Translations under genes and position numbers: made by a program
Assembly: GCA_051362555.1 (NCBI GenBank)
Contig: CM120645.1
Location: 1,736,001-1,800,000, forward strand
Direction: 5' to 3'
From: Lingula anatina
Lineage: Eukaryota; Animalia; Brachiopoda
DNA: 64,000 bases
Part shown: piece by piece, positions 1 through 57,551 of the stretch
Layout: every line of letters starts with the position of its first letter
Numbering within the stretch: the stretch's first letter is position 1
Notes under the pieces: generated by a model
The model's database searches: none
Told to the model about the DNA's origin: nothing
What the model saw: the letters and a program-made list of their open reading frames with translations, nothing else

Positions 1-3000
1 GGTAGTATTCTGGCAGTTTGGCACTGTACTGTTATCCACTATCTCACAGCATCTGGTATTATTACCACACACAACTAAGGGCCTCACTTCAATTTATGAA
101 ACAGAAGTCAAAACTTGTCAACACAAGGAAATGAATTTAGAACATTATTTTAGAACTCATTAAATTTAGAACACTGTGGCAAATTTATTGAGTTCATTTG
201 TTTATACTTCTAACATGAGATACAGTGTACCATATACAGCATTCCCTGCACAAAATACATACAAAATTCAAAAAGAATAGAAAGATTTTAAAATAACAAC
301 ACTGAGCCCCTGACGAGTGTATTAAAATCACAACCTTAAAATCATAAATAATTCCTTACGCTTAGTTGAATTGATAAAAACAAACATAACATCAAATGGG
401 TTTTTAAGCACAGTTTTTATGTCGAGTTATAATTTATTCAAGGACCAATATTTGAGAAGAAAAGTATGAAGTAAAAACTTTCCATTGAACCTCAGAACCA
501 ATATGTCGACTTCAACCCCCCCCCCCCTCTTTCCTAATGGTGGTAATGGTACTGCACCCATGCAATAAAGTTTAACTGCCAGTTCTTACCTGGAACGCAA
601 TTTTGTGGATCTGGATCAGAAGAGTTGAACATGTATCCCTCTTCACACACACAGACCCGAGGTTCTGGACAAGGTAAACTTTGACCTTCTTCATTGGTAG
701 TATTCTGGCAGTTTGGCACTGTATTGTTATCAACTACCTCACAGCATCTGGTATTATTACCACACACAACTGGGGGCCTCACTTCAATTTATGAAACAGA
801 AGACGAAACTTATTAACAAAGGGAAATTATTTTATGAATTCTTTTATTTAAGAATATTGCGCAAGTCCGTTGTGTATCTGGGTTTGCATGTACTTCAAAC
901 ATGACATACAGTGTGCCATACAAAACATTGCCAAATTCCAACCACTGCGGCAAGTGACAACTGGTATACGACACCCATTTTCCAACCAGGGTAAATTACA
1001 ATGCCACATGTCACTTATTTACCAACCATGATTAAAAATATTATTTTTACAAATTATGCTAGAAGATATGAAGTTTAATATTGAAGTCATCTGCACAAAA
1101 TATACATGTTTACAAGTTTAAATAGGGTAGTATCGAAACCACAAACACAAATCATAAAGAATGCCTTATTCTTCCTTGAAAGGTAAAAACATGCAGTCCT
1201 TTAACCAACAATGAGGGTTCTCACCTGGAATGCAATTTTGTGGATCTGGATCAGAAGAGTTGAACATGTATCCCTCTTCACACACACAGACCAGAGGTTC
1301 TGGACAAGGTAAACTTTGACCTTCTTCATTGGTAGTATTCTGACAGTTTGACACTGTATTGTTATCCACTATCTCACAGCATCTGGTATTATTACCACAC
1401 ACAACTAAGGGCCTCACTTCAATTTATGAAACAGAAGACAAAACCCGTGACTAATTTTATAGCAATATTTTCGAACCCATTAAATTTTAGAACATTGTGC
1501 CAAATTGATGTTTTTGTGTTAATGTTTCTCACATGAGATGCAGTGTACCGTACACAGCAATGCCAAATTCCACCCACTGCGACTTGTGACGACTGGTATA
1601 AAACACCTGTTTTCCAACCAGTCAAGTACTACATGTCACGTGTACGCAAACCATATATAATTACAAATATTATTCTATTTTCTTATTAGTTAAAAAGTTT
1701 TAAAAATTAGTCACCTGCATGAATTAAAAGAGTAAAAAAGAACACAGACCCCCTGACGACAGCATTTTGAAATCATTTAAACAAAATCTTAAAAGTGTTC
1801 TTTGCTCTTCCAGGATTCAAGCACATAACTTTTTATCAAACTTCAGAACCAGTAAAATGTATCTCGGCTTCAACCCCTTCTGTTTCCCCTTGTTACTTAT
1901 ACTAATTACCGTACCGCTGCAATAAAGTCTATAAGTACCATTTCTCACCTGGAACGCAACTTTTGGAACCTGGATCAGAGATGTTCAACCTGTATCCCTC
2001 ATTACACACACAGGACCATTTATGCGGGCAAGGTAAACTTTTTTCAATGATATTATTCTTGCAGTAGATCGAGTGTCTTCTAACCCTACAGCACTTGGAG
2101 TTCTCCCCACACACGGGTCTTGGCGAAGGTTTTTTACACCCCTTGCCTCGACTGCCGCACTCCTGGCAGCGTATACGTGAGAAGGCGAGGTGCGATGGCT
2201 TAGCGTGCCGGCCGCCGTGTTTGCGTGGATGCCCAGGACATGCTCGGGTTATGCAGAAACGGCTGTGCCTTGTATGCCCTAAATGTAAATTTAAGATTTT
2301 ACGAAAAGTAAAACAACTTACACCTATATCATTTTTTGTCTGATTGGACGAAATGCCTGCATTGAACAAAAACGTATTTAAATTATTACAAGGTATAAAA
2401 AGCATGCCATAATGTCCAAATTCAGAATGTTGTTTATTTCACTGTATTTCAGGCCTACAGGCCAAGAGTACATCAACTGAGTTCTATTTATGATAATACT
2501 GAGCTGACTACAAAAGAATATATATCATAAACGACACAAATCACTTATCTAAAAAAACATCTCTTAATTTCTCAGCATGATATATGAAGGCCGCAAGTCT
2601 TTTTATAAAGTCAACATTATGTGATGACAGAGCAGTCGCTAGTGACAATGTTGTAATCTCGGGTATAAAGCGTTCCCTCAGACCGTTATATAAACTACAT
2701 GACATTAACACGTATTCCTCATTCTCAATAATTGTTATGCCATCAGAAAGGCATGTAGTACATACTCTATTTTCCCCATCTGCACTGGCATAACGACCCT
2801 TCTCAACCTGTAATTTGTGGTTTGATATTCTGAACTTGCAGTAGGCCCTTCTATGCTCTCCTATGGACACAAAAGATAAGTATTCCTCAAATACCAAATC
2901 TAGTTCAAATGAGCTGTAGGTCCTCAGCTTGCCTGATTCGCGTACTAAGGAATACCAATTCTACCTGCTTATATCCATTAATCGTTGTCTTAACTGTTCT

Positions 3001-3936
3001 GAAAAAAGTTTCACATTTCCACATCCTTGGTTTTCCCATACTACTCCAAATCCATATGAATATAAAAGATGTTTGATGTCACTCGCCCATGTTTGCCTCC
3101 CACTACTATCTAAGTCAAACAGTAACTTGTAGCATGATTTCAGTAGCCTACCGTCGTCCATACACAAAAGCTTGAACCAATACCTAATACATTTGACATG
3201 ATAATCTATGTATAGAGGGTAACGACCACATTCCCTAAGAACTGCTTGTGTGCTTGCATTATCCGATACCATCAATCATCTTTTACAAAACTTAACTTGA
3301 ACATTCTCTCTTGATTCGGATATTTCATATTCACTTGTAAGTAAAATTAACGTTACCATTTTATCGTAAATGAACATGACTATTTTACTAAATCGTGCTC
3401 TTTGGTGGATTGGTTTTTATCTTGACGCGATTTTTAAGGCTGATTTCTCATAATTGATCTCGCTTGACGCCATTGCATCGAGATATGCATCGTACCATCA
3501 TGCAAGCCAACCCACGGCTCTTCTTTCATGTAGGGTCTGCCATATTTGATCTGTGGATCAGTAGATCCTCTGATCTCCAGTTCTGAATGCGTCCTTTGTC
3601 GAATGAAGCTATTGTTCTGCCGTGTAATGCATCTTTTGTGAACGTGAAAGTAACAAAACTAAGCAAAATGTTTGGCTAACTGGAACACCGTTCAAAACGA
3701 AAGACGGTCCGAGAGAAGTGAGTTACTTTATAGCATAATGCAGATGAAACAGGGACCGATCAAATAAAGTTTGACCAGTCATGGTAATTTGAAAAAAAAA
3801 ACAAAAACATCTATCTTTAAAATACTTGATGGTGAATTATTAATGTCATAATTTAGCACTTACGAATATTGGCGACCGCATACAGTGCAACCAAAACCAA
3901 AATCAGACAAAGGAGCATTGTCCTGTACATCTTCAT
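1..3936 (-). CDS. Secreted Cys-rich repeat protein, copy 1 (5' part; 3' end lies outside the window)
   Basis: Exon 1 3936-3864 encodes MKMYRTMLLCLILVLVALYAVANI (signal peptide, GTAAGT donor, phase 1). Exon 2 2278-1949 (330 nt, TTTAG acceptor, GTGAG donor). Repeat exons 1416-1225, 781-590 and 86-<1. All are phase 1-1 and in frame. Confidence 0.8.
2425..3328 (-). mobile_element. 5'-truncated non-LTR retrotransposon (3' end of ORF2, RTEX/L1-like C-terminus)
   Basis: ORFs 2961-3275 and 2541-2897 give FRISNHKL..E.GRY...R.C..C...E.EE..L..C..Y..LR, typical of LINE ORF2 C-termini. Flanked by ATTCA duplications (2420-2424, 3329-3333). The site is empty in unit 2 (~25780). Confidence 0.8.
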
Positions 3937-9973: not shown

Positions 9974-10391
9974 AAATGTTATTATACGGCAAGTGAAATA
10001 CATTTTCATTTTCAGATAGGTCTTCTAACGCTCACCAGCCACGCAAAACAATAATCATTCTTGGAGACGAGGGGTGTGGAAAATCTTGTCTAGTCAGCGT
10101 TTTCACAAAGGACGATTTCGCCATAAACCGTCTTCCTGTCCCTTCCACGAGTAATATTTCATACATAGAACGGCAGTTTAAATGTTGCGCTGCATATCAT
10201 TTCAACCCATGTTCTCATTATCAACAATATCAAAAAATCTTACATATATTTAGTTTGTTCCACACTTGAATAATAAAGAAAAACGTCTGTTTTAAAATTG
10301 ATGCAGGACCCGCATGATAAAAGCGAGAAAATTTCAAAATTTTACATTCAATCTCTCTGTTAATCCCCCCTCACACGAAACCCTGGAACCA

Positions 10392-10469
<78 letters not shown>

Positions 10470-11119: not shown

Positions 11120-12868
11120 TTATTTCATGGGCACAGCTGAAACCCGGAAAACTAGCTGTATTAAAAATGAAATAAAATACTTTGATGCCTTTCTCAGCGT
11201 TTATATGCAAATATTAAATAAGTACTATGTACTATTTGTCGTTAAGCGTTTATTGGTCCAACTTGACAATGATCGCTATCTGAAACAGAAGAGTAAATTA
11301 CATAAGTCTGCATAAATAATAATCCTATAAATACACGTTTCTATAGTAGACCTATAACCTGTTTAGAGGAAGGGTATGCATAAAAAAAGAGTGTAGCACA
11401 CTGAATATTTTGGTATTTTTACAAATTAATAATATCTGTTGAAGTCTACCTGGACACCTGAAGTAAGTAACTCTAACACAAGTGAACAATAACTAACCAC
11501 TGCACTACCTGTGCAGCTCTTTATTATAGTACCAAATATGCAAATGACCCAATGCTACAAGTCCAATAAATATGATTGGCTAGTTTACCACTGCATAACC
11601 ACTGCAATGCAACACTTTACCATAATTGTTTGAGATGTTATCACATAGCCATTATGTAAGTTCTACAAGAGGAAACCATTGCCTTCTTGCATGTTCAATG
11701 CCCAAATTCTATTGCGACAGTGATTTATATTGATGTAGGCGTGTGCATCGGTCCGTCCAAAGTCGCTATTTATTTCTCCATACTTGATTCACTAATTATT
11801 ATCTTTAATTGTATACATTCCTGATATTACTTAACTTTATTTTTATAATCCGATTTAACAAGGAGTTATTTTATTCTTTGTGAGCATACCTTTTAACCAC
11901 GGGATTCTTGTTCCATTTTATTTTGTTACATAAGCCAATCATGTTATCAAAATGCATTGTGGTGTACTTGGTAAAAAAATGACAAAGTTCAATGATTTTT
12001 TTTAAAATATGAACGAAAAATGCTTTTTAAAGGCCTGTATTACTATCTCTTAGTTTTGGCAGAGATATCAAATATCAGTTTGGAAATGGTTATAGGTATT
12101 AGGGAATTCTTGCTCGCTTTTCTCTTTGAATAATGCAAAAATTATAAACAAGGAAATTCTTATTTTTCATGTTGATATTTTATTCCTGGTGGCATATTGA
12201 GTTTTTTTAATAGCCTATCACAGTATATGAAGAGATACATGTATTATCTTCATTTCAACTTTCTGTTCTGTCATTTGGCTTTGTCAATAAGCTAACAACA
12301 TTTTGGAAGAAAATTGTAGTCTTTAGCAACTCAGCTAGGCTCGGGCAGATCATCCCTCCAGTTCAGATTTTGGTATTGCTCATATCTTTAACAAGAGATA
12401 GAGACCTTGAAGGTCCCTCCGATACCAAACCCGTACACACCTATTGCATACGTCCCATTGGATAAGTCTCCTTGAGGGATCTGGAGCAGAGAGGTAAAGC
12501 CAGAACAGCCATCAAAGTCGTCATTGGAGTACGCACTGTTACCTTGGCGGATATTGCATGTCTGACTTCCACCGGATTCAATATTAGACATAGCATCACA
12601 GGAAAAAAGAGCCAGCTTCGTGTCGTAGTCGGCGGCATTGCATGTGGATATAATGATGTTGTTACTTCCTGAGTAACAGATGCTGTATCGCAACGGTGCC
12701 AGATTATTTGCGACATATTGATAGCTGTCGTTGAAGGTATAGGTTGTACCATCACACATGACTTGTTGAACGTCCGCTGTAAGTGTTAATATAATTTAAG
12801 TGTAAATATAATTTCGACTTTCACATTGGCCACACTATTTTACAATAATAATGATTATATATACCCGG

Positions 12869-12950: not shown

Positions 12951-15900
12951 TTTCCGAAATTGGATCCCGTAAAAGTTTTTAAAAGTAAAATAAAAATAAA
13001 AAGATTATTAGTAATAATGATAATTAAAAATAAAAATAATTAAGTTTTATACAAGTACAACATTGGTCAAAAAGGTTGTCCCACCCCCACTTCCATATAC
13101 TTTTATTTACAAATGATCAGCTCACAGGTGTAAATTGTTATAACTAGTGCTTTTTATTCTAGATACCATGTCTAACATGAATAATGGTTAAAAAAATACA
13201 AAATAGTGGTCTGTTTAGGAAGAATGGGAAAATATCCCACAAAACAGAATTATTACCCTTGTTGAAGGCTTGTCGCGCCATCTACAGGAGATAATTACAG
13301 TACGCGGTAGACGCACACGCTATTAGGCAGGTGACCTCTAACGAGCACATCCTAATGCTAATTATGTGTAAATTTGGTGACATTTGGTGGCGTCTTTTCA
13401 ATTAAATAGGCACTTCTTTACATCCGTAGAAATCACAGTGGAACATTGGATCTGAGGGGGTACTTGTTATAAATTTGACTTAATGGTATAAAATGTGCAT
13501 TTTACAACTCAATGAACTGTCTGTTATTTTAAAACAGTATGACATAGATTATGCCTGCATAACAGGGAGCTGGTGCAACTCATCCATCTCTGACAGCATA
13601 TAATACAGTGAGAAAAGACAGAGAGCAGAAGAGGGGCGGTGGATTGGTTTGTTACATCTAAGAATCAATACCTTTCAAGATATGGAATGAGCTAGTCTGC
13701 AACCTGGAATCACTATGGATAACTTTGAGACCAAACAGACTACCTCGGCGTGAATTCTCACACATCAGCCTTGGCGCAATTTACCACCCTCTAGGTGCAG
13801 ATAACAAGAGTATGACCCAACATATCATATCTTCCACTGACTTTATCCTCAGGGTCCACCCGTATTCAGCAGTCTTCCTTATTGGTGACTTTAACACACT
13901 CCCTGACAACCAATTTAAGAGAGCCTTCAACTTGAGACAGATTGTCAGGAAGGGTACAAGAAGAGAATCAATACTGGACAAAATCTTCACTAACATTGAC
14001 CAATATTACAAGGTGCCCGAAATACTACCGCCAATAGGACATCCGACCACAATGCAGTACTCTCCCTTCCTGCAAATCATAACCGCAATCCATGTGGTAA
14101 AGAGGAAAAGATCCGCTGTCGCTCCATGGGAAAAAATGAAAAAAATTCTTTTCGCTCATGAGCTCATGAAAGTGAATTGGACACCACTGTATAAAATGGA
14201 CACTTGTGCAAACCAGTACCAGTTCTTCGAAGAGACAATTAACAATCTCCTTGACACCTATCTTCCAATGAGAGTCATCAGCAGACACACAACGGACAAA
14301 CCCTGGGTAACATCTGATTTCAAGGACCTCATCAAACGGCGTCAGAGAGCCCTCAGCGAAGGAAATACTAGCCTTTCACATGCACTCAGGAACAAAATCA
14401 AAAGGACAAATAAACAACTTAAGTCAAAATACTATAAAAATAAAATAGAATCATTGAAACAGTCCAACTCTTCCCTATGGTGGAAAAAATCAAAAGAATT
14501 ATCTGGGATGCAAAACAATGTCACTTTACTCCAACTGCTGGCAGATAGCACATCTTCAGGCAATCTTCCAGTTCTGGCAAACAAAATCAATACCTTTTTT
14601 CATAGTGTCAGCCAAGACCTGTCACCTTTACAACCTGACGGAAATGCCCAGCAGAGTTGTATAGTACCTGACAAATTTGTTATCTGCACAGCGGATGTAG
14701 AAAAATTACTATCCAAAGTAAAGCTGTCTTAAGCTAAAGGCCCAGACCAAATTCCAAATTGGGTTCTCAGAGACTTTGCAGACTACTTGTCAAAACCACT
14801 TTGTGCAATTTTCAATAGCTCAGTAAGGGATGGTTGCGTACCAAAAATTTGGAAATCTGCAGAGATAATACCCATTCCAAAAGTGAATCAGCCAAAGGTA
14901 ATAGAGTCAGATCTTAGACCTATATCACAAACACCAGTTCTAAGTAAAATTTTGGAGTCTTTTGTAACAAAGTGGGTTACAGATGGTCTGCAAATTGATA
15001 GAGCACAGTTTGGTGGCATTCAGAATAGTTCAACTACTCACGCCTTAGTTGAATTGACTCATAGATTACTAGAAGGACTTGAACCATCCCCCAAAACAAA
15101 GTCTTATGCTCAGGTGTTATTTTTAGATTTTGCTAAAGACTTCGACAGGATTGATCACCATATCTTAATGAAAAAATTAGAAATTCAAGGGATAGACCAA
15201 TTGGCTGACTGGGTCAAGCAAAACAAGATGAAACTTAATGTAAAGAAGACTAAGTCAATGGACATAAATTTTACCAAGAACTGTAATCTTACAATGCCAA
15301 CATTGGAAATAGATGGTGAACGTGTAGAAAAGGTCAAAAAGTTTAAGATACTTGGTGTTATTTTAACCCCAGACCTCAAGTGGGCTGAACACATCCGAAT
15401 CATGTATGCTAAGGCATGTTTAAAGCTCTTTTATCTCAGACAGCTAAAGAGGGCAAAACTGGACATACAAGATTTATTAACTATTTACCAGTCTGTAATA
15501 AGATCAGTTTTAGAATATGCATGTCCAGTATGGGGACCAGGTCTGACTGCTGAGCAATCTGAATGTCTAGAGTCAGTTCAAGAGAGAGCTTTAAGGATTA
15601 TTTGCCCTGGTCTCAGTTATGATGATGCCTTAAAAGTTTGTAACATTGACACCCTAGACAAACGTAGACATTTGCTGTATCAGAGGTTTTATACAAAATT
15701 AAAAAATTGTGAAAAGTTAGGACATTTATTGACTGAAAGAAACACCCGCCCTTTACGAAACACCAAATTCTTACAACCAAAAGTGAACGTTTTAAAAATT
15801 CCTTTATTAATTATTGCCTTTTTAACTTGTAGTAATTTATGGATGCCGTTTTAATTTGTAGTATTTTAAGAATAATTTATTGTTTTATAATTTAAAGTTT

Positions 15901-18900
15901 ATTGTCAATTTTCTTTTAAACATTCTTTGTACAACTTCAACCTTAGGGTTGCAATTTTATCAAATAAATTATTATTATTATTATTATTATTATTAAACAT
16001 ACAGAAAAGATTAATATAAATGAAGTACAGCTTCAGTTGGAAAACCACATATATATAATTTCATCTTGAGTTGGAAAACCAGCTCAATTCCATTATTTTT
16101 CAAGAAGAAAGGCATTTTTTTTTTTTTTTTTTTTTTTTTGCAAAAATGTTGGACTTTGAACTCCCACTGGCATGAAGCCTCATGGTAGTTACATATTCTT
16201 AGTGTCCACGTTAGATAAATAAAAAATTGGTGTTGACTTTGTTGTTAAGCATAATGTATTATTGCATCAAAACTGTCAAAAAAAAAAATTCTTTGCATCA
16301 TTGTGTGTTCATCTAACAGCTTTGCTGCCTTGTTGATTCTCTTTCTACACACTGTTATGTAGGTTAAAAAAGATGCCATACTTACGACACCGTCTTGTTA
16401 GTTCAGCTGAAAAAATTGATAAGAAGAAATATATTAGAAAAGCACATTAATGATATATATATACAAATAATCTATATATTGTACAACTTCTGCCACCACT
16501 TTTGCCGATAAATTTGAGAAATGAATCCTTAATGTCAAAACATACACCAGTTTCCCAACATATCAACAATTTTTTGTTCACTGCGTTTTTTAATGATCCT
16601 ATAACGTGGATTGCAAGGTAATATCCATTACCACAATTATTTTCAATTTTAAAAACCACATCTTACATGCAGTTAGCTTGTAGTGCCTTTTTACACACTG
16701 GTATGTAGGTTATAGAAGATGCACTGTGCCTGAGATAATTTATAAAACTCCCTGGCTATCTATCATCTAAGACCTTAACTAATTTAAAAATCAGTAAAAC
16801 GAGGCAGCAAGCAGCCTTAAGTAAAACACAAAAAATAAACACATATGAAAGTTGGTCTACACTGAAGAAAAATTAGTATTAAATATTTTTGTGTTAAATG
16901 TAATATCATACTTACGACATTGTGCGATAGATTCAGCTGAAAACGTGAAAAGATGTATTTTGCAAAAGTACACGAAAATATTCATACAATCATGTGCATA
17001 TTCTGCCAACGTGAACAAAGATGTTAATATATATTATATATTGGTTTAGATATGAATTAATTGATATTATTCTCTCAATAGTAAAATATAGAACTCTATA
17101 GACTATCTCTATACAGCAACTAAAATTTCCCGTTTCTGCTTTTTTGTCTAGCCCATAAAACCAACTATTCTTACCAATTATTTTCTATTTCTGGCTATAG
17201 AAAGATAGCAGTAGGGAGGGCACGTTTGCAAATCAAATGTAATGTTTGATGTAATACTTACGACATGTCGGCATTTCTAGGGGAAAAAAGAAAGGCAATA
17301 TTAAACACAATGGGGCATCACTTGAATAATATAATCATTCAAACAATTATCATTTAAACATTGATTTTTCAGATACTTTAAAGTTTAGGTGATTCGATCA
17401 ATGAAGCCATATGATAAAAGACAAAATAGTGGAATTTGTTTAATGCTGAATTATCAAAAGAAAAAGAGGTGTTCGCGGAATTCAACTTTAACGGTTACAT
17501 ATGATTGGGTTTATTTCCTTATCCGCTATTAGCTACCGTGGAAATGAACATTGTCATTTTATGAGATAACGTAGTCACATCCAATATACATTGAGGTAAA
17601 TATGCTAGTTCCAGTTGGTGACGTAAAAGTAGTTATTTGGGAGAGAAAACTTTTATGTCCATTTCAAACAATATGTACTACAAACTGGTGTCAGGAAATT
17701 GGCGTAGGTTTAATCTCTACATAAAAAACAGCAACTCCCTTGATAATGTTGAAATCAGAACAACACAACAAAGAGTTCATAGCGTTTCCTTCAAATGGTT
17801 ACACATAATTTGAAAAGAAATGTATAAAAGACTAAGTTTCCTTCGAACTTAAAAACCAATAACTTGACTTCCACTTCCCCCTTTTCCTAATGCCAGTGAA
17901 TACTGCATCCTAACAGTTTAAATACGGTACTATCGAAATCAAACACCCTATTCCTGGATACAATATTGTTATAAGTTCAAGAGTTTACAAATAAGATCAC
18001 CTGCACAAAATATATACAAATTTAAATAAGAATTGAAAGATTTTAAAATATCAAAACTGAGCCCCCTGCTAGGGTATTAAAATGACAACCGTTAAATCAT
18101 AAAAAATTCCTTACTCTAAGTTGAATTGGTAAAAACAAACATAACATCAAATGGGTTTTTAAGCACAGTTTTTATGTCGAGTTTTTATTTATTCAAGGAC
18201 CAATATTTGAGAAGAAAAGTATAAAGTACAAACTTTTCATCGAACATCAGAACCAATATGTCGACTTCAAATCCCCCCTTTCCTAATGGTGGTAATGGTA
18301 CTGCACCCATGCAATAAAGTCTAACTGCCAGTTCTCACCTGGAACGCAATTTTGTGGATCTGGAACAGAAGAGTTGAACATGTATCCCTCTTCACACACA
18401 CAGACCAGAGGTTCTGGACAAGGTAAACTTTGACCTTCTTCGTTGGTAGTATTCTGGCAGTTTGACACAGTACTGTTATCCACTATCTCACAGCATCTGG
18501 TATTATTACCACACACAACTGGGGGCCTCACTTCAATTTATGAAACAAAAGACAAAACTTGTCAATACAGGGAAATGAATTTATATAGATTTCATTTTGA
18601 AACATTATGTCATGATCATTGCATTTCTGTGTGTGTCCTTCTAAGACGAGGTACAGTGTGCCATATAAAACATTGCCAAATTCCACCCACTTTGACAAGG
18701 ACGATGGTCATCCGACATTTTCCAACCAGTGTAAATTACAAAGCTACATGTCACCCTTACGTAAACCATGATTAAAATTTTTATTTCGATATTATGTTAT
18801 AAGATCTAAAGATTAATAATGAAATCATCTGCACAATATATACATGTTTACAAGTTTAAATAGGGTAGTATTGAACCAACAATCACAAATCAACTGAGAG

Positions 18901-18925
18901 TGCCTTACTCTTCCTTGAAAAGGTT

Positions 18926-18966
<41 letters not shown>

Positions 18967-21900
18967 ACTTTAACCAACAATGAGAGTTCTCACCTGGAAC
19001 GCAATTTTGTGGATCTGGATCAGAAGAGTTGAACATGAATCCCTCTTCACACGCACAGACCCGAGGTTCTGGACAAGGTAAACTTTGACCTTCTTCATTG
19101 GTAGTATTCTGACAGTTTGACACTGTACTGTTATCCACTACCTCACAGCATCTGGTATTATTACCACACACAACTGAGGGCCTCACTTCAATTTATGAAA
19201 CAGAAGACAAAACTTATCAACACAGGGAAATTATTTTATATAGATTCCAATTCAGAACATGATGCCAGGATTATTGTGCTTCGGTGTGCATCCTTCTACA
19301 GTGTGTAACATGAAAGACAGTGCGCCATACAAAACATTGCCAAATTCCAGTCAACGTGACAATTGACTGTGGGTATACGATACACGTTTTTCAACCACTG
19401 TAACTTTAAATGCTGCATAAGATCTTACGTTTAATAATGAAGTCATATGCACAATGTACACCAATACTTTGGGGGAGATAAATGACTGTGGAATGATATG
19501 CTCCTGCTATCAGTTTATTAACAAGTTTACAAGTTTAAATATGGTTGTATCGAAATCACAAACACAAAGCATAAAGAGTGCCTTACTCTTCCTTGAAGAG
19601 GTAAAAAAGCAGAACTTAAACCAGCAAAGACAGTGGGCCAAAAAAACATGGCCAAATTCCATCCAATGTGACGTATGACGATGCGGGTACACGATACCTA
19701 CTTTTAAGTTATATGTCACGTGTACGCAAACCATGATTAAAAATATTATTTCTACATATACTGTTATGAGATCTAAAGTTTAACGATGAAGTCATCTGCA
19801 CAATATATACATGTTTAATTACAAATTTAAATATGGGAGTATCAAAATCACAAACACAAATCATATAGAGTGCCTTACTCTTCCTTGAAAAGGTAAAAAG
19901 CAAAACTTTAACCAATAATAACAGAACTCACCTGGAACGCAATTTTGTGGATCTGGATCAAAAGTGTTGAACATGAATCCCTCATCACACACACATACCA
20001 GAGGTTCTGGACAAGGTAAACTTTGACCTTCTTCATTGGTAGTATTCTGACAGTTTGACACTGTACTGTTATCCACTACCTCACAGCATCTGGTATTATT
20101 ACCACACACAACTGAGGGCCTCACTTCAATTTATGAAACAGAAGACAAAACTTATCAACACAGGGAAATTATTTTATATAGATTCCAATTCAGAACATGA
20201 TGCCAGGATTATTGTGCTTCGGTGTGCATCCTTCTACAGTGTGTAACATGAAAGACAGTGCGCCATACAAAACATTGCCAAATTCCAGTCAACGTGACAA
20301 TTGACTGTGGGTATACGATACACGTTTTTCAACCACTGTAACTTTAAATGCTGCATAAGATCTTACGTTTAATAATGAAGTCATATGCACAATGTACACC
20401 AATACTTTGGGGGAGATAAATGACTGTGGAATGATATGCTCCTGCTATCAGTTTATTAACAAGTTTACAAGTTTAAATATGGTTGTATCGAAATCACAAA
20501 CACAAAGCATAAAGAGTGCCTTACTCTTCCTTGAAGAGGTAAAAAAGCAGAACTTAAACCAGCAAAGACAGTGGGCCAAAAAAACATGGCCAAATTCCAT
20601 CCAATGTGACGTATGACGATGCGGGTACACGATACCTACTTTTAAGTTATATGTCACGTGTACGCAAACCATGATTAAAAATATTATTTCTACATATACT
20701 GTTATGAGATCTAAAGTTTAACGATGAAGTCATCTGCACAATATATACATGTTTAATTACAAATTTAAATATGGGAGTATCAAAATCACAAACACAAATC
20801 ATATAGAGTGCCTTACTCTTCCTTGAAAAGGTAAAAAGCAAAACTTTAACCAATAATAACAGAACTCACCTGGAACGCAATTTTGTGGATCTGGATCAGA
20901 AGTGTTGAACATGAATCCCTCATCACACACACATACCAGAGGTTCTGGACAAGGTAAACTTTGACCTTCTTCATTGGTAGTATTCTGACAGTTTGACACT
21001 GTACTGTTATCCACTACCTCACAGCATCTGGTATTATTACCACACACAACTGGGGGCCTCACTTCAATTTATGAAACAGAAGACAAAACTTGTCAACACA
21101 AGGAAATGAATTTATATAGATTTCATTTTGGAACATTATGTCTTGATCATTGCATTTCTGTGTGTATCCTTTTACAACATTATTTTAGAACTCATTAATT
21201 TTAGGACATTATGGCAAATTCATGCTTATATGTTTATACTTCTAACATGGGATACAGTGTGCCATAAACAGCATTGCCAAATTCCACCCACTGCGATGTG
21301 TGATGACTGGTATACAACACTTGTTTTCCAAGCAGTGTAAATTACAATACTACATGTCACGTATATAAAACCATGATTAAAATATTATTTTTCCATATAT
21401 TGTTATAAGATCTAAAGTTTAATAGTGAAGTCATATGCACAATATACACGTGTACAAGTTTAAGTACGATAGTATTAAAATCATGAACACAAATCACTGA
21501 GAGTGCTTTACTCTTCCTTGAAAAGGAAAAAAGCAGAACTTTAACCAGCAATGAGAGTTCTCACCTGGAACGCAATTTTGTGGATCTGGATCAGAAGAGT
21601 TGAACATGTATCCCTCATCACACACACAGACCAGAGGTTCTGGACAAGGTAAACTTTGACCTTCTTCGTTGGTAGTATTCTGGCAGTTTGACACTGTACT
21701 GTTATCCACTATCTCACAGCATCTGGTATTATTACCACACACAACTGGGGGCCTCACTTCAATTTAAGAAACAGAAGTGAAGACTTGTCAACACAAGGAA
21801 ATGAATTTATATAGATTTCATTTTGGAACATTATGTCTTGACCATTGCATTTCTGTGTGTATTCTTCTAACATGGGGTACAGTGTGTCATATAAAACACT

Positions 21901-24900
21901 GCCAAATTATACCCACTTTGACAAGGGCGATGGTCATCTGACATTTTCCAACTAGTGTAAATTACAAAGCTACATGTCACGCGTACTCAAACAATGATTA
22001 AAATTTTACTTCTACACATTGTTATAAGATCTTTAGATTAATAATGAAGTCATCTGCACAATACATACATGTTGACAACTTTAAATATGGTAGTATTGAA
22101 ATCACAAACACAAAGCATAAAGAGTGTCTCACTCTTATTGAAAAGGTAAAAAAGCAGAACTTTAACCAGCAATGAAAGTTCTCACCTGGCACGCAATTTT
22201 GTGGATCTGAATCAGAAGAGTTGAACATGTATCCCTCTTCACACACACAGACCAGAGGTTCTGGACAAGGTAAACTTTGACCTTCTTCATTGGTAGTATT
22301 CTGGCAGTTTGACACTGTACTGTTATCCACTACCTCACAGCATCTGGTATTATTGCCACACATAACTGGGGGCCTCACTTCAATTTATGAAACAAAAGAC
22401 AAAGCTCATGAATAATTTTAGAGCATTATTTTAGAACTCATTAATTTTAGGACACTGTGGCAAATTCATGCTTATACGCTCGTATGTTTATACTTCTAAC
22501 ATGGGATACAGTGTGCCATAAACAGCATGCCAAATTCCACGCACTGCAATGTGTGACGACTGGTATACAACACCTGTTTTCCAAGCAGTGTAAATGACAA
22601 AGCTACATGTCACACACACACACATATATATATATATATGTCAAAGGCCCGGATCAAATCTAGTCCCATGCATAAAGAGCCCAGACTCCATGTTTATTAC
22701 ACCCTGGCTGGGCCCATTATTTTTGGTGTCTTTGCATTGTTAACAGCATAATGGGCAAGTTAAATGACCAAGTTAATTGACCAAATTAATTGGCCAAGCT
22801 GCCAGTTTGTTTGTATGGCATGTGCAGTTGTCTTAGATCAAGGCACAAATGAAGCCCACCTTTAATTTAACATTTCTTTAGTGTTTAGCTTTTTATGCAT
22901 TCCAACCACTGCGGCAAGTGACACCCATCTTTCAAACAGTGTAAATTACAATGCTACATGTCACTTATTTACCAGCCATGATTAAAAATATTATTTCTCC
23001 AAATTTTGCTAGAAGATTTAATATTGAAGTCATCTTCACAAAATATACATTTTATAAGTTTAAATATGGTAGTATAGATATAACAAACACAAATCGTATA
23101 GAGTGCCTTACTCTTCCTTGAAAAGGTAAAAACATGCAGTCCTTTAACCAACAATGAGAGTTCTCACCTGGAACGCAATTTTGTGGATTAGGATCAGAAG
23201 AGTTGAACAGGTATCCCTCTTCACACACACAGGCCAGAGGTTCTGGACAAGGTAAACTTTGACCTTCTTCATTGGTAGTATTCTGACAATTTGACACTGT
23301 ATTATTATCCACTACCTCACAGCATCTGGTATTATTACCACACACAACTGGGGGCTTCACTTCAATTTATGAAACAGAAGTCAAGACACGTGAACACAGG
23401 GAAATTAATTTAGAACATTATTTTAGAACTCATAAAATTTAGATCACTGTGCCAAATTTATTGTGTTCGTGGGTTTATACTTTTAACATGAGATACAGTG
23501 TACCATACACAACATTGCCTAATTTCACCCACTGTGAAGTGTGACGATGGGTATGCGATATCCATTTTGAAACCAGTGAAAATTACTAAGCTACATACCA
23601 CAAACGTAATCCCATATACGATTACAAACATTATTCCTAGATACACTGTTATAAGATCAAGAGTTTAAAAACAAGATCACATGCACAAAATACATACAAA
23701 TTTCAACAAAAATTGAAAGATTTTAAAAGAACAACACTGAGCCCCTGACGAGGGTATTAAAACCACAAGGGTAAAATCATAAAGAATTCCTTACTCTAAG
23801 TTGAATTGGTAAAAACAAACATGACATCAAATGGGTTTTTAAGCACACTTTTTATGTCGAATTATAATTTATTCAAGGAAGGACCAATATTTGAAAAGAA
23901 AAGAAATGCATAGTAACTTTTTATCAAAACCAATATCTCGACTTCAACCTCCCCCCCCCCCCCCCATCCTTTCCTAATGGTGGTAGTGGTACCGCACCCA
24001 TGCAATAAAATCTATAACTGCCTGTTCTCACCTGGAACGCAATTTTGTGGATCTGGAACAGAAGAGTTGAACATGTATCCCTTTTCACACACACAGACCC
24101 GAGGTTCTAGGCAAGGTAAACTTTGACCTTCTTCATTGGTAGTATTCTGACAGTTCGACACTGTACTGTTATCCACTACCTCACAGCATCTGGTATTATT
24201 ACCACACACAACTGGGGGCCTCACTTCTATTTATGAAACAGAAGACAAAACTTGTCAACACAGGGAAATGAATTTATATAGATTTCATTTTGAAACATTA
24301 TGTCATGATCATTGCATTTCTGTGTGTGTGCTTCTAAGACGAGGTACAGTGTGACATATAAAACATTGCCAAAGTCCACCCACTTTGACAAGGACGATGG
24401 TCATCCAACATTTTTCCAACCAGTGTAAATTACAAAGCTACATGCCACCCTTACGTAAACCATGATTAAAATTTTTATTTCGACATTCTGTTATAAGATC
24501 TAAAGATTAATAATGAAATCATCTGCACAACATATACATGTTTACAAGTTTAAATAGGGTAGTATCGAACCAACAAAAACAAATCATTGAGAGTGCCTTA
24601 CTCTTCCTTGAAAAGGTTAAAAAAAAAAAAAAACACAGGACTTTAACCAACAATGGGAGTTCTCACCTGGAACGCAATTTTGTGGATCTGGATCAGAAGA
24701 GTTGAACATGTATCCCTCTTCACACACACAGACCAGAGGTTCTGGACAAGGTAAACTTTGACCTTCTTCATTGGTAGTATTCTGGCAGTTTGACACTGTA
24801 CTGTTATCCACTACTTCACAGCATCTGGTATTATTACCACACACAACTGGGGGCCTCACTTCAATTTATGAAACAAAAGTCAAAACTCATGAATAATTTT

Positions 24901-27061
24901 ATGGCATTATTTTAGAACCCATTATATTTTAGAACATTGTGCCAAATTGATGTTTTTGTGTTAATGTTTCTCACATGAGATACAGTGTACCATACACAGC
25001 AATGCCAAATTTCACCCACTGCGACGTGTGACGACTGGTATAAAACACCTGTTTTCCAACCAGTCAAGTACTACATGCCACGTTTACGCAAACCATATAT
25101 AATTACAAATATTATTTTATTTTCTTGAAATCATGAAAACGAAATCTTAAAATAGTTCTTTGCTCTTCCAATATTCAAGCACATAACTTTTTATCAAACT
25201 TCAGAACCAGTACTGTGTATCTCGGCTTCAACCCCTTCTGTTTCCCCTAGTTACTTATACTAATTACCGTACCGCTGCAATAAAGTCTGTGAGTGCCATT
25301 TCTCACCTGGAACGCATCTTTTGGAACCTGGATCAGAGGTGTTCAACCTGTATCCCTCATTACACACACAGGACCATTTATGCGGGCAAGGTAAACTTTT
25401 TTCAATGATATTATTCTTGCAGTAGATCGAGTGTCTTCTAACCCTACAGCACTTGGAGTTCTCCCCACACACGGGTCTTGGCGAATGTCTTTTACACCCC
25501 GTGCCTCGGCTACCGCACTCCTGGCAGCGTATACGTGAGAAGGCGAGGTGCGATGGCTTAGCGTGCCGGCCGCCGTGTTTGCGTTGATGCCCAGGACATG
25601 CTCGGGTTATGCAGAAACGACTGTGCCTTGTACGCCCTAAATGTAAATTCAAGATTTTACGAAAAGTATAACAACTTACACCTATATCATCTTTTTGTCT
25701 AATTTGATGAAAAGCCTGCATTGAACAAAAACGTATTTAAATTATTACAAGGTATAAAAAGCATGCCATAATGTCCAAATTCACTTGTAAGTAAAATTAA
25801 CGTTACCATTTTATCGTAAATGAACATGACTATTTTACTGAATCGTGCTCTTTGGTGGATTGGTCTTTATCTTGGCACGATTTTTAAGGCTGATTTCTCA
25901 TAATTGATATCGCTTGACGCCATTGCATTGAGATATGCATCGTACCATCATGCAAGCCAACCCACGGCTCTTCTTTCATGTACGGTCTGCCACATTTGAT
26001 CTGTAGATCAGTACATGTAGATCCTGTGATCTCCAATTCTGAATACGTCCTTTGTTGAATGAAGCTATTGTTCTGCACCCTGAGCTTCAGAGATAACTTG
26101 ACACTAACCTCTTCACTATAGCCTATCTTCATCGTGTCAAGTTACCTTTGACCACATTCGATTGCCCCCGCCGCCCGCCAATCAAATTTAAAGCCCGCAC
26201 TCAATGACTCATTGAACGATCTAGCCAATGAACGCGAACGAGTCAAAGCGCGCTTTGTTCAAATCCGGACCAATCAAAGATAAGGCTGAATATCAGGGAC
26301 TTGCCGTAACCTGTGAGCAGCACGCAAAATACATCAGCCCTCAGTAGATAATGATGCAGGGCCTCAAACTGCTCTGGTTTCAATTCCGATATACTCATAT
26401 TTTGCAAAGAATCAACAGATAACTTAACACATTATTTTACGTAGTCACTCGTAGGAGACGCCATGCTTTCTCCGTGTACGGTTATGCACTCGGAACTACT
26501 CGGATGTCTCCGCACTAGACAATAACTTTCTTGTTAGTATGGAGCTTGCGGAATCAGCCGAGGATTACCGCTTGACGGTCAACCAATCAGCGTTTTCACC
26601 AAACTTTGGTGAAAAATTTTGAAACTTGGATTCGATTGGCTTATATAAACTAGGTCAAACTATTTTCGTCAGAGGTAACTTGACACAATGAAGATAGGCT
26701 ATTGTGAAGAGGTTAGTGTCAAGTTATCTCTGAAGCTCAGGGTGTTGTTCTGTCGTGTAATGCATTTTTTGTGAACGTGAAAGTAACAAAACTAAGCAAA
26801 ATGTTTGGCTAACTGGAACACCGTTCAAAACGAAAGACGGTCCGAGAGAAGTGAGATACTTTATAGCATAATGCTGATGAAACAGGGATCGATCAAATAA
26901 AGTCCGAGTCATGGTAATTTAAAAACAAACAGCATCTATCTTTAAAATACTTAATGGTGAATTATAAAAGTCATAATTTAGCACTTACGAATATTGGCGA
27001 CCGCATACAGTGCAACCAAAACCAAAATCAGACAAAGGAGCATTGTCCTGTACATCTTCAT
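12388..27061 (-). CDS. Secreted Cys-rich repeat protein with PPC-like C-terminal domain, copy 2 (complete model, ~820-860 aa)
   Basis: Signal exon 27061-26989. Basic exon 25636-25307. Nine repeat exons: 24858-24667, 24223-24032, 23359-23168, 22377-22186, 21756-21565, 21061-20870, 20123-19932, 19185-18994, 18530-18339 (each 12 nt shorter if the internal YAG acceptor is used). Micro-exons 17276-17262, 16936-16916, 16406-16386. Terminal exon 12776-12388. All introns are GT-AG, phase 1, and the frame is open to TAA. Confidence 0.8.
13480..15994 (+). mobile_element. Degenerate CR1/L2-group LINE (APE endonuclease + reverse transcriptase) in the last intron of copy 2
   Basis: Endonuclease motifs (GGGL, IYHP, IGDFN, LDKIFTN) and RT motifs (GPDQIP, DLRPIS, FLDFAKDFD, KILGV, RSVLEYACPVW). 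Contains stops and frameshifts, and the PQG/YADD segment is deleted. Ends in AATAAA plus an (ATT)n tail. Absent from unit 3; the 5' boundary is approximate. Confidence 0.9.
19050..21050. repeat. Almost perfect 938-bp tandem duplication within the repeat-exon array
   Basis: Identical ORFs recur with a 938-bp offset (19117/20055, 19454/20392, 19709/20647). Boundaries are approximate. Confidence 0.85.
26076..26744. mobile_element. Non-autonomous DNA transposon with ~75-bp TIRs and 8-bp TSD (hAT- or P-type)
   Basis: TIR CACCCTGAGCTTCAGAGATAACTTGACACTAACC... and its reverse complement. TSD TTGTTCTG at 26068-26075 and 26745-26752. The site is empty in unit 1 (~3612-3619). Confidence 0.9.
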
Positions 27062-32935: not shown

Positions 32936-33007
<72 letters not shown>

Positions 33008-34789: not shown

Positions 34790-37700
34790 TTAACAAGAGA
34801 TAGATATCCTAAAGAAGCCATAGGAAGTGTACGCCCCGCACACACCTATTGCATACGTCCCAATGGGTAGGTCTCCTTGCGGGATCTGGAGCAGAGAGGT
34901 AAAGCCGCCACAAACGGGACTGTCGTCATTCCAGTGCATAAAGTGATATCCGCGGATGCCGCATATCTGAAGTCCACCGCGTTCAATAAATAACGTCGCA
35001 TCACAGGCAAAAAGAACCACCATCGTGTCGAAGGTGGCGGCATTGCATGTGGATATACTGATGTTGTTACACCCCGAGTAACTGATGCTGTATTGTAACG
35101 GTACCAGGTCGAAATCAACAAATCGAAAGCGGCTGCTGAAGGAGTAGGTTGTACCGTCACACCTGACTTGTCGAACGTCCGCTGTAAGTGTAAATATAAT
35201 TTTTAAACTAGCATTTGACTTTCACATTGGCCACAATATTTTGCAATAATAATGATAATTTAAGCAGCTACCACATATATATAATTTCCGAAACTGAACT
35301 CTAAAAGTTCTTAAAAGTAAAATAACAATACAAATAATTATAAATAATAATAATAATTAAAGATAAAAATAATTAAGTTTAATACTAGTATGTTAAAAGA
35401 TTAATCGTATAATATACAAAAAATACAGTAAGTAAAAAGTAGGGAAAGCATAAACTAAGCTGCGTACGTAACTTTAAGACCCCAAACGGCATGATTTTTA
35501 CATCGTTTTTATGTACAGACACACCGCGCCTGGTGTACAGGGACACATTGTGCACGGTGGAAAATTTCTAGACAAAACTGGATAACTTCCTTGCTAGTAT
35601 ACTATATATATAGACCAACCCACACTGGTGACCACCATAAGGTGGAAAAACTTAACAAGTAAAGAGAAAGTAAGTAAAACCCCTTTTACACTAGACGGCG
35701 TCCTTTCTGCGTCCCGTACGTACATGTAGTACGGCCCCGTTTGAGAGTAAAAAAAGTAATACTTTACGTGCCAACAACTTGCAGATCAATGAGCATTCAT
35801 TCTGCAACCACGGCGATGCCTGTTTCATGGTCGCACAAAGGACGCAGAAAGGACGCCGTCTAGTGTAAAGGGGGTGTATGTAAGAAAGTAAGCATTAAAT
35901 GATATTGTATCAAAGTTGAAGAAAACCATGTTTTGGGCACCGATGCTATAATGACCAACAAAGGAAGACTTTGTTACTTATGATTATCAAACATACAGAA
36001 AAGATTAATAGAACTGAAGTACAGCTTGAGTTGGAAAACCATATATTTATAATTTCATTATTTTTCTGGAAGAAATGCTTTTTTTTTTTGGCAAAAATGT
36101 TGGACTTAGAACTCCCACTGGCATGACGCCTTATGGTAGTTATATATTCTTAGTATCCACGTTAGATAAATTAAAAATTGTTGGTGACTATGCTTTGTTG
36201 TCAAGCATAATGTATTATTGCATCAAAACTGTCAAAATTTTTTTTTGCATTATTGTGTGTTCATCTGACAGTTTTGCTGCCTTATTGACTTCCCTTTCTA
36301 CACACTGGTATGTAGGTAAAAAAAAGATGCCATACTTACGACAATATCTTGGAATTATAGCTGAAAAAATTGATAAGAAGAAATATAGTAGATAAGTACA
36401 TTAATGATATACTGTATATACACACACTGGACAATAGGAGTGTCACCCCTACTGAACCAATACTTTGGGGGAGAGAAATGACTGTGGAATGATATGCTCC
36501 TGGTATCATTTTATTAACATCAAATTTCACAAAAAGACCAACAATACAATTCCATGGTACAGCGGTTTTATACTCATTAGTCGCATTATAAGTAGATCAG
36601 GCATTATAAACTTTGATTACTCTGTTTCAGGGGGTGAAGGGGGTGACACTTCTCTTGTCCAGTGTGTGTACAAGTAATCAGTATATTGTACAACTTCTGC
36701 CACCACTTCTGCCGATAAATTTATGTGAAGATATTAATTCTTAATGTCAAAACACACACCAGTTTCCCAACATACCAACAATTTTTTGTTCACTGCGTTT
36801 TTTAATTATCCTATAACGTGAATCGTAAGGTAATATTCATTACCACAATTATTTTCAATTTTAAAAAACATATCTTACATATCTTAAATATAGAAGTCTA
36901 TAGACTATTTCTATACAGCAAATTAAATTTCCCGCTCCACTGCTTTTTTGTCGAACTCATTAGATGAACAATGATAAAAACCAACTAGTTTTACCAATTA
37001 TTTTCTATTTCTGGCTATAGAAAGATAGAAGTTGAGAGGGCATGTTTGCAAATCAAATGTAATGTTTGATGTAATACTTACGACATGTCGGTATATCTAG
37101 GGGAAAAAAAAGGCAATATTAAACACAATGGAGTATCACTTGAATATATAATCATTCAAACAATTATCATTTAAACACTGACATTTTCGTCATTTCAGAT
37201 CCGGCGACAAATGTATGTTATCCTTTAAAATAGAGTTTAGTTGATTCCATCAATGACAAAATAGTGGAATTTAATGCTGAATTACCAAAAGAACTCAACG
37301 TTAACACAGATGCTCATAGATAACTATGTGAGGGAGTGAAGCGGTTAATTACGATTGGGTTTATTTACTCCCTCGATTATGTAGAAGTCGGAACAAAACA
37401 AAAAGGAGTCCATAAGGTTTCCTTCAAATGGTAACACAATTTGAAAAGAAAAGTATAAAGACTAAGTTTCCTTCTAACTTTAGAACTAATATCTCAACCT
37501 CAAACCCACTCCCCCTTTCGTAATGGTACTAATACACAATGCAGTACTGCACCAATGCAATGAAGCCTATCACTGCCAGTTCTCACCTAGAATGCAATTT
37601 TGTGGATCTGGATCAGAAGGGTTGAACACGTATCCCTCTTTACACACACAGACCCGAGGTTCTGGACAAGGTAAACTTTGACCTTCTTCATTGATAGTAT

Positions 37701-41513: not shown

Positions 41514-41593
<80 letters not shown>

Positions 41594-48559: not shown

Positions 48560-48916
<357 letters not shown>

Positions 48917-57104: not shown

Positions 57105-57551
<447 letters not shown>

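What the first reader, a model, noticed from the sequence alone, without database searches (positions are those of the whole stretch)
12388..12776. Intronless C-terminal domain looks bacterial (PPC-like): possible horizontal acquisition
Seen: motif string STC....(Y/F)DT.L.LF.C ... NDD...C.GFTS.L......L..GTY.IGV.G....G.F.VSISC on one exon. From recall, not a search: TC...FDT.L..Y...NDD.C...S.......GTYYI.V.G...G.Y.L.V typifies bacterial pre-peptidase C-terminal (PPC)-like beta-sandwich modules of secreted proteins. Inference: a bacterial-type binding module has been shuffled onto an animal Cys-repeat stalk.
Basis: inference. Interest (0 to 1): 0.7.

Follow-up and report, generated by a model that had tools for sequence, protein, structure and literature searches.

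The report
Bacterial-type binding tip on brachiopod proteins
A spliced, expressed gene family of the lamp shell Lingula ends in a domain related, in sequence and in predicted fold, to bacterial PPC-type modules; it likely works as a fast-changing binding tip on a likely secreted rod and was possibly borrowed from bacteria, but the family tree cannot exclude inheritance from single-celled relatives of animals.

Summary
Window 12776-12388 (minus strand) is the coding part of the last exon of a 15-exon, 858-aa Lingula anatina gene model: signal-like leader, basic Cys-rich exon, nine 8-Cys repeat exons, three micro-exons, then the domain. RNA reads show the last splices. The domain misses Pfam PPC directly. 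It is, however, a clear homolog of a Cys-bearing PPC-like module family (60 bits against a profile without Lingula; best of 1000 shuffles 11.4), and its model (pLDDT 93) matches PPC/collagen-binding domains. At least six Lingula paralogs form one clade, 41-72% identical. Between two tandem copies the exon diverges faster than its own UTR and introns while the core stays fixed. Horizontal transfer is plausible but not shown. Most relatives are bacterial and no other animal was identified, but homologs occur in a dinoflagellate and other eukaryotes. A tree joining Lingula to choanoflagellate-like sequences fits as well (p-AU 0.54), and the searches would miss most distant single-domain animal homologs. 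Best reading: an undescribed variable binding tip on a secreted rod, probably of bacterial origin (about 50%).

The parts
12388..12776 (-). Terminal exon of gene B, coding part: 128-aa Cys-bearing PPC-like beta-sandwich (the finding)
   Evidence: frame, acceptor; splice reads; homology, fold; identical to residues 158-285 of P0001, LOC112042606
16386..16406 (-). Micro-exon 3 of gene B (21 nt, one Cys; likely supplies the first Cys of the module)
   Evidence: spliced to 12776 in 16 reads; C-x7-C count
16916..16936 (-). Micro-exon 2 of gene B (21 nt, one Cys)
   Evidence: its last 9 nt are in the loose-end consensus
17262..17276 (-). Micro-exon 1 of gene B (15 nt, one Cys)
   Evidence: in NCBI model P0001; its copy in gene A is seen in reads
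18339..24858 (-). Nine 192-nt phase-1 exons, each a 64-aa acidic 8-Cys repeat (the first has pI 4.05 and 4 N-glycosylation sequons): the stalk
   Evidence: Pfam only weak (JAG1-like EGF2 E 0.11)
25307..25636 (-). Exon 2 of gene B: basic Arg/Lys/His-rich head (pI 10.1) plus a diverged first Cys repeat
   Evidence: weak cEGF match E 6.9e-4, below cut-off
26989..27061 (-). Exon 1 of gene B: start codon and hydrophobic signal-peptide-like leader
   Evidence: leader judged by eye, no predictor run; similar leaders on P0003-P0005; junction to exon 2 not tested with reads
34790..45052 (-). Gene A, tandem paralog (terminal exon 35181-34790; micro-exons 36360-36340, 37096-37082; ninth repeat exon used from a downstream in-frame acceptor at 37763)
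   Evidence: joints in runs X1-X3
1..3936 (-). Gene C, third tandem paralog (leader, exon 2, first three repeat exons; runs off the window)
13662..15854 (+). Broken LINE-type retroelement inside the last intron of gene B (no match in gene A)
   Evidence: (RVT_1 E 2.2e-10)

Best explanation
This exon ends a spliced, expressed Lingula gene family and encodes a domain homologous to a mostly bacterial Cys-bearing PPC-like module family; it is predicted to fold as a PPC/collagen-binding-type beta-sandwich, likely acts as a variable binding tip at the end of a likely secreted, glycosylated Cys-repeat rod, and was probably taken from a bacterium once in the lineage leading to Lingula. Shown: gene structure, splicing, homology, one Lingula clade, a fixed core with a changing remainder. 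Predicted: the fold. Inferred mechanism: the leader exports the protein; the basic head (pI 10.1) grips polyanions such as mucus or matrix glycans; 0 to 10 acidic repeats set the reach; and the tip binds an extracellular polymer, most likely a collagen-type fibre or glycan, so the protein cross-links matrix or mucus, with paralogs differing in specificity. Inferred history: the module arrived once, became a phase-1 exon, was joined to the stalk through Cys micro-exons, and was multiplied by tandem duplication.
For: Gene model open over 15 exons, all GT-AG. Reads join repeat exon, micro-exons and terminal exon in gene A (35181-36340: 27/50/22 reads in X1/X2/X3; 36360-37587 with the 15-nt micro-exon between: 25/27/11) and the last two joints in gene B. 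Homology: 60 bits vs 11.4; Atlas top clusters PPC/GBD_T9SS, score 0.96. Fold: pLDDT 93.3, pTM 0.88; Foldseek rank 1 is the PPC domain 5sv5, E 3e-4; VIA Z 10.1 PliG, 9.9 5sv5, 9.7 ColG CBD, tied. PPC domains of two collagenases bind triple-helical collagen (PMC6168687, abstract and passages). Tyr114/Phe116 align with the two exposed Tyr of 5sv5 through the profile and, if the C-terminal ends register without a gap, with ColG Tyr994/Tyr996 (hot spots per PMC4356367; inferred). Variable tip: A vs B exon 0.231 changes per site against 0.127 in the 3' flank, 0.092 in the near intron and 0.012-0.035 in stalk introns and the Rho region (Fisher p 5e-4 and 2e-5); 2 of 22 core vs 49 of 106 other residues differ (p 0.001). 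Bacterial origin: 27 of the 69 true non-Lingula hits carry the bacterial T9SS tail; 173 relatives in GTDB genomes; best-scoring domains are bacterial-type; weak sister group in both free trees is P0083/P0092/P0148; no other animal was identified among 101 and 81 hits.
Against: No direct Pfam match for the gene B or gene A domain and no meaningful NCBIfam match. The sister relation is unstarred (93/76; 81). Holding Lingula with P0026/P0027 gives a likelihood 3.5 units higher (p-AU 0.54), and holding it with all nine eukaryote-like rows is not rejected (p-AU 0.17). Homologs occur in Breviolum minutum and another eukprot eukaryote, and a preprint lists PPC domains in Salpingoeca rosetta. Only 65 of 569 family domains reach the 35.6-bit floor of the library search, so distant animal homologs would mostly be missed; most hits carry no taxon label. 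dN/dS over the exon is about 1 (95% 0.58-1.71) and dS is raised too, so exon exchange with a distant paralog or relaxed selection explains the divergence as well as positive selection does. The aromatic pair is kept in only 3 of 6 paralogs, and the first position is usually Gly/His in the family. The fold is shared by domains with other jobs (PliG, SIDT1, GOLD). No ligand was tested.
Confidence: 0.5

Rival explanations
1. Old holozoan inheritance: the module was already present in single-celled relatives of animals (itself perhaps an ancient bacterial gain), was kept patchily, and expanded in Lingula. The function as a binding tip is unchanged.
For: Lingula + P0026/P0027 fits as well as the free tree. 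P0027 is a eukprot protein. P0026 has a membrane anchor and tail that look choanoflagellate-like (my recall, no label). PPC domains are reported in S. rosetta and weakly in Entamoeba CPBF1 (PMC3465781). Related folds sit in animal families: Pfam GBD_IRG7_N matches another domain of hit P0007; UPF0669/C6orf120 appears as a weak Atlas lead, 0.82. Search sensitivity is low.
Against: No other animal among 101 and 81 hits although the libraries draw on NCBI nr, UniRef and eukprot. P0026/P0027 domains score 30-34 bits against the Lingula profile, rank 203 and lower of 575, while bacterial-type domains reach 60. The taxa of P0026 and P0027 are unknown.
Confidence: 0.3
2. Transfer from a microbial eukaryote (for example an alga taken in by filter feeding) that had itself gained the module from bacteria.
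For: A Breviolum protein and seven unlabelled near-relatives of it carry the domain; Lingula + all eukaryote-like rows is not rejected (p-AU 0.17).
Against: In both free trees the dinoflagellate rows sit inside the mainly Bacteroidota clade (99/93 and 98), apart from Lingula; the constrained tree is 31.7 log units worse.
Confidence: 0.12
3. On function only: the tip recognises microbes or other non-self surfaces (immune or mucus defence) or gametes, not the animal's own matrix.
For: Multi-copy family with a hypervariable tip on a homogenised stalk; gene A's domain is on a longer branch than gene B's (0.39 vs 0.12); expressed in 3 of 3 runs of study P1 but with no exon cover in X4 and X5 of study P2; PliG, a lysozyme inhibitor, ties as best fold match; no paralog id or motif found in two shell-proteome supplements.
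Against: dN/dS is not significantly above 1; tissues of the runs are not known; the supplements may use other identifiers.
Confidence: 0.3
4. Bacterial contamination or assembly artefact.
For: None found.
Against: Spliced polyA reads on the right strand; paralogs on several Lingula scaffolds; flanking Rho-family genes and an intronic LINE.
Confidence: 0.01

Closest known systems
[quoted passage not shown]
   Same: Predicted eight-stranded jelly-roll sandwich (Z 9.2-9.9, about 100 residues aligned); C-terminal position on an exported protein; the 18-row profile finds 2luw (E 0.037) and 5sv5 (E 0.16); relative P0083 passes the Pfam cut-off.
   Different: No direct Pfam hit; no peptidase domain in the protein; a 12-residue Cys-bearing insertion and a shortened N-terminal loop; sits on an animal repeat stalk; ligand unknown.
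Unnamed Cys-bearing STC/DT/NDD module of Bacteroidota T9SS cargo and Planctomycetota proteins (overlaps Pfam GBD_T9SS_assoc PF23759)
   Same: 35-42% identity in the trimmed alignment; 22 shared core columns including C45, D51, C73, N84-D85-D86, C90, Y109, G120; terminal Cys in 143 of 454.
   Different: Bacterial proteins usually carry several copies beside peptidases or adhesin domains; Lingula proteins carry one terminal copy. The family itself has no demonstrated function.
Eukaryotic PPC-like proteins: Breviolum minutum P0024, eukprot P0027, S. rosetta candidate transfers (bioRxiv 10.1101/2020.06.28.176636), Entamoeba CPBF1 (PMC3465781)
   Same: Same module (P0024, P0027) or same Pfam label in eukaryotes, read as bacterial gains in S. 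rosetta.
   Different: P0024 and P0027 carry tandem domains and no Cys-repeat stalk; no supported grouping with Lingula; I did not see the S. rosetta or Entamoeba sequences.
Lingula EGF-shuffled extracellular proteins (PMC4595640) and bacterial-origin animal matrix proteins such as MSP130 (PMC11878542, search listing only)
   Same: Lineage-specific domain shuffling and tandem expansion in secreted proteins; proposed bacterial origin of an extracellular protein.
   Different: Neither paper, as far as I saw, mentions this family; here a single small module, not a whole enzyme gene, would have been recruited.

Membership tests
PPC (PF04151) | Scores above the Pfam gathering cut-off | tested here: not met
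   No Pfam family at E up to 10 for gene B or gene A domains
PPC (PF04151) | PPC/collagen-binding beta-sandwich fold | tested here: met
   Model pLDDT 93.3; 5sv5 rank 1 in Foldseek, E 3e-4; Z 9.9, rmsd 2.9, 99 aligned
PPC (PF04151) | Sequence link through intermediates | tested here: met
   Single-domain hit P0083 (E 3e-4) scores 29 bits on PPC, cut-off 25.9; 9 of 18 rows of A3 match PPC at E up to 1
PPC (PF04151) | Attached to a secreted peptidase | tested here: not met
   No catalytic domain in the 858-aa model
Collagen-binding domains (ColG s3b type) | Aromatic hot spots Tyr970, Tyr994, Tyr996 | tested here: inconclusive
   Y114/F116 may correspond to 994/996 by end registration only; kept in 3 of 6 paralogs; 970 not mapped
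Collagen-binding domains (ColG s3b type) | Binds triple-helical collagen; calcium dependence | not testable with these tools
   Needs a binding assay
GBD_T9SS_assoc (PF23759) | Scores above the Pfam cut-off | tested here: not met
   No hit for the window domains; many relatives do match
Cys-bearing STC/DT/NDD PPC-like module (unnamed) | Significant match to a profile built without Lingula, core residues kept | tested here: met
   44-66 bits for 6 of 6 Lingula domains, shuffles at most 11.4; 22 core columns
Horizontally acquired animal gene | Integrated in the animal genome and expressed (not contamination) | tested here: met
   Splice reads; animal neighbours
Horizontally acquired animal gene | Nested with support inside a bacterial clade; eukaryote monophyly rejected | tested here: inconclusive
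   Weak bacterial-type sister; p-AU 0.54 and 0.17
Horizontally acquired animal gene | Absent from other animals | tested here: inconclusive
   None identified, but only 65 of 569 family domains pass the search floor and most hits are unlabelled
EGF-like / TIL repeat (stalk) | Pfam EGF-clan match above cut-off | tested here: inconclusive
   Only sub-threshold cEGF (exon 2) and JAG1-like EGF2 (repeat) matches; not pursued further

The most novel reading that the evidence does not exclude
A single small bacterial binding module was captured by the brachiopod lineage, turned into a phase-1 exon, wired by Cys micro-exons onto a variable-length animal repeat stalk, and now serves as the diversifying recognition head of a lineage-specific family of secreted proteins, while gene conversion keeps the stalks alike: a recognition repertoire built from a borrowed domain.
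Probability: 0.25. Interest if true: 0.65.

Novelty: new variant of a known kind. Interest (0 to 1): 0.42.

Why it matters
Most reported bacterial gains in animals are whole enzymes or toxins (recalled; examples listed). Here the candidate is one binding module absorbed into exon shuffling, with paralogs that show the steps: domain plus linker only (P0004), one repeat (P0003, P0005), ten repeats (genes A and B). It gives a fold to at least six 'uncharacterized' Lingula proteins and extends the NCBI model, which lacks the leader and most of the stalk. It also offers a small, well-folded domain for finding the ligand of a large unstudied bacterial module family. If the holozoan rival is right, it is an overlooked old extracellular module and interest is modest.

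Tried and rejected
No whole genome was held, so Lingula paralogs could not be counted; six is a minimum. Word-index searches with the single domain found only Lingula (1 of 153 and 1 of 1 candidates). No match in plasmids or phages. Lingula-specific patterns found no relative in viral contigs (0 of 29 stretches) or metagenomes (0 of 91). With family patterns there was 1 of 141 in viral contigs and 55 of 594 in metagenomes (unlabelled, not analysed further). phmmer against the PDB gave only a chance hit. 28 of the 97 non-Lingula hits were dropped as spurious, mostly BspA leucine-rich repeats that match one short stretch. No RNA holder was listed by the index; raw runs were laid instead. My first guess that gene A skips its ninth repeat exon (lost acceptor) was wrong: reads use an in-frame acceptor 12 nt downstream (1/10/12 reads) and the original position (2/8/2), with only 5/5/1 reads going from the terminal exon to repeat 8. 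Base composition gave no sign of transfer. Searches for the gene ids found 0 papers; 'pre-peptidase' + 'metazoa' 3, 'PF04151' 6 and 'peptidase C-terminal' + horizontal + animal + invertebrate 1, none on this family by title or abstract start. The family of the stalk repeat was left open. No complex was predicted, as no partner is known.

Full report
Observation. The interval is the coding part of one minus-strand exon: an AG acceptor precedes 12776, the frame is phase 1 and the stop lies at 12390-12388. The domain is identical to residues 158-285 of P0001, 'uncharacterized protein LOC112042606 [Lingula anatina]', which names the organism. No whole genome was available.

Gene anatomy. The exon ends gene B, a 15-exon model of 858 aa with all introns GT-AG and phase 1. 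In order: a hydrophobic leader (27061-26989; judged by eye); a basic exon with a diverged first Cys repeat (pI 10.1); nine 192-nt exons of an acidic 8-Cys repeat; micro-exons of 15, 21 and 21 nt with one Cys each; and the domain. The model has 96 Cys and 38 N-glycosylation sequons. The NCBI model P0001 (285 aa) starts in what this model treats as intron and lacks the leader and most repeats. Two more copies lie in the window, gene A (45052-34790) and gene C (3936 to the window edge), each in a unit of about 22.7 kb with two Rho-family genes. Paralogs elsewhere show shorter forms: P0004 has leader, linker and domain only; P0003 and P0005 have one repeat; P0002 has a partial one.

Expression. 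In stranded polyA run X1, reads cover the exon on the gene's strand and 16 reads continue from 12776 into micro-exons 3 and 2. X4 did not cover the exon, and X7 and X9 showed only diverged reads, probably from paralogs. For gene A, runs X1-X3 show terminal exon to micro-exon (27/50/22 reads), micro-exon to repeat exon with the 15-nt exon between (25/27/11), repeat to repeat (88/74/53) and, in X2, exon 2 to a repeat (36 loose ends); X5 showed no exon cover. The leader-to-exon-2 junction was not tested. Contamination is excluded.

What the domain is. Pfam gives no hit and NCBIfam only a chance one. The ESM Atlas returns PPC and GBD_T9SS_assoc clusters at 0.93-0.96. A three-sequence profile against 1.84 billion representatives gave 101 hits. 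The top four are Lingula (103-246 bits). Of the other 97, 69 hold the domain and 28 are spurious, mostly leucine-rich repeats. A profile from 216 non-Lingula domains scores the six Lingula domains 44-66 bits; 1000 shuffles of the window domain reach at most 11.4. With an 18-row alignment AlphaFold2 gives pLDDT 93.3 and an eight-stranded sandwich. Foldseek ranks the PPC domain 5sv5 first (E 3e-4). VIA-align ties PliG (Z 10.1), 5sv5 (9.9), the ColG collagen-binding domain (9.7), CorA (9.4) and the Tk-SP jelly roll (9.2), with SIDT1 at 8.5. So it works like a PPC module by fold and descends from the same superfamily, but it fails the Pfam membership score. Relative to bacterial copies Lingula has a Cys-bearing insertion and a shorter N-terminal loop, and the module's first Cys probably lies on the last micro-exon (inferred).

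Distribution. Labelled bacterial hits are Chitinophagales, Phycisphaerae and Flavobacteriaceae; 27 of the 69 carry the T9SS tail. A GTDB scan found 173 relatives among 291 pattern matches. The 80 kept are mainly Bacteroidota (39) and Planctomycetota (31), but the patterns came from four bacterial-type rows plus the window, so this spread is biased. Eukaryotes also have the module: P0024 from Breviolum minutum and P0027 from eukprot, seven unlabelled near-relatives of P0024, and unlabelled P0026, P0072, P0075 and P0088, which I treated as probably eukaryotic from their architecture. A preprint lists PPC among the common domains of candidate transfers in Salpingoeca rosetta (passage and section 10 read, supplement closed). 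Entamoeba CPBF1 has weak PPC similarity (PMC3465781, one passage). No second animal was identified, but I looked up sources for only 17 of the 97 and 10 of the 81 hits, one search scored only 7985 candidates, and just 65 of 569 family domains reach the library floor of 35.6 bits. Close orthologs in other animals are therefore unlikely to be in the libraries; distant ones are not excluded.

Phylogeny. From 575 domain copies I kept 229 (best per protein or locus), 150 after removing near-duplicates, and 92 for trees on 113 columns. Lingula's six domains form one clade (100/98; 99). Both free trees give a weak sister of P0083, P0092 and P0148, which look bacterial (93/76; 81), in an unresolved zone next to P0026/P0027. 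Lingula is not inside the large Bacteroidota or Planctomycetota groups, while the dinoflagellate rows are inside the former. Forcing Lingula with P0026/P0027 raised the likelihood by 3.5 (p-AU 0.54). Forcing it with nine eukaryote-like rows cost 31.7 but was not rejected (p-AU 0.17). The nesting test is inconclusive.

Evolution of the tip. Domains A and B are 60% identical while stalk exons differ by 0-10 changes each. The exon differs by 0.231 per site, its 3' flank by 0.127, the nearest alignable intron by 0.092, and stalk introns and the Rho region by 0.012-0.035 (p 5e-4 and 2e-5). Core residues are fixed (2 of 22 differ, against 49 of 106 elsewhere). dN is 0.285 and dS 0.30, ratio interval 0.58-1.71. 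The tip is thus the variable part of an otherwise homogenised unit. Diversifying selection, exchange with a distant paralog and relaxed constraint all remain possible.

Mechanism. Most likely an exported two-ended linker: a polyanion-binding basic head, a glycosylated spacer of adjustable length, and a PPC-like tip that binds an extracellular polymer. This rests on precedent, since PPC domains of Grimontia and Hathewaya collagenases bind triple-helical collagen (PMC6168687, abstract and passages), and on a possible match of Tyr114/Phe116 to ColG Tyr994/Tyr996 (PMC4356367 and PMC3158780, one passage each). That pair is kept in only 3 of 6 paralogs. Recognition of microbes is the main functional rival. 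The nematode immune protein IRG-7, whose Pfam N-terminal family matches another domain of hit P0007, is a loose parallel (PMC5308781, passages). A calcium site at the conserved Asp/Asn residues is a guess. No ligand was tested.

What is known. The Lingula genome paper reports frequent EGF-domain shuffling and has no 'horizontal' in its main text (passages and supplement term search). A 2026 shell-proteome paper's supplement holds none of the five gene ids or motifs (passages and supplement search), though it may use other identifiers. Searches for the ids and for PPC in animals found nothing on this family.

Verdict. A real, expressed, undescribed Lingula family with a PPC-like terminal module. 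Bacterial origin in the Lingula lineage is the leading but unproven history (about 0.5, against 0.3 for old holozoan inheritance and 0.12 for a protist donor). Interest 0.42.

Noticed in passing
window 6800-7500, 10000-11030, 29480-30180, 32500-33600 (+) and 48700-57500 (+): Cluster of Rho-family GTPase genes: at least three canonical RhoA-like copies and diverged copies inside the tandem units. The copies near 10 kb and 33 kb have an altered switch-II motif, and the one near 10 kb has an early stop at about 10936.
   Followed up: partly
window 37775-37587 (-): The ninth repeat exon of gene A has GG where the other repeats have the acceptor AG; reads use an in-frame acceptor 12 nt downstream, and some use the original position, perhaps from another allele.
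   Followed up: yes
window 16386-17276 and 36340-37096 (-): The linker is built from 15-21-nt micro-exons with one Cys each; gene B has three, gene A two, and other paralogs have two linker Cys. Gene B also has an extra Cys33 in the domain.
   Followed up: partly
window 18339-24858 and 38507-43819 (-): Repeat exons use a weak AAG acceptor; two copies (24223, 43189) have a second AG 3 nt upstream, which would add one residue. Exons and introns of the array are 90-100% alike between genes A and B, which points to concerted evolution.
   Followed up: partly
window 13662-15854 (+): Broken LINE-type element, present in the last intron of gene B only.
   Followed up: no
window 35620-35920 and 36380-36680: Intronic pieces covered by RNA reads on both strands with many loose ends in all four runs: probably short dispersed repeats transcribed elsewhere.
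   Followed up: no
P0024, P0122-P0125, P0128, P0163, P0168: A Breviolum protein and unlabelled near-relatives carry 1-5 copies of the same module and nest in the mainly Bacteroidota clade (99/93): a separate and better supported transfer candidate.
   Followed up: partly
L081 (IMGVR_UViG_3300037991_003551): One viral-collection contig encodes the module (42% over residues 43-97); an Atlas cluster labelled Uroviricota also scored 0.95.
   Followed up: no
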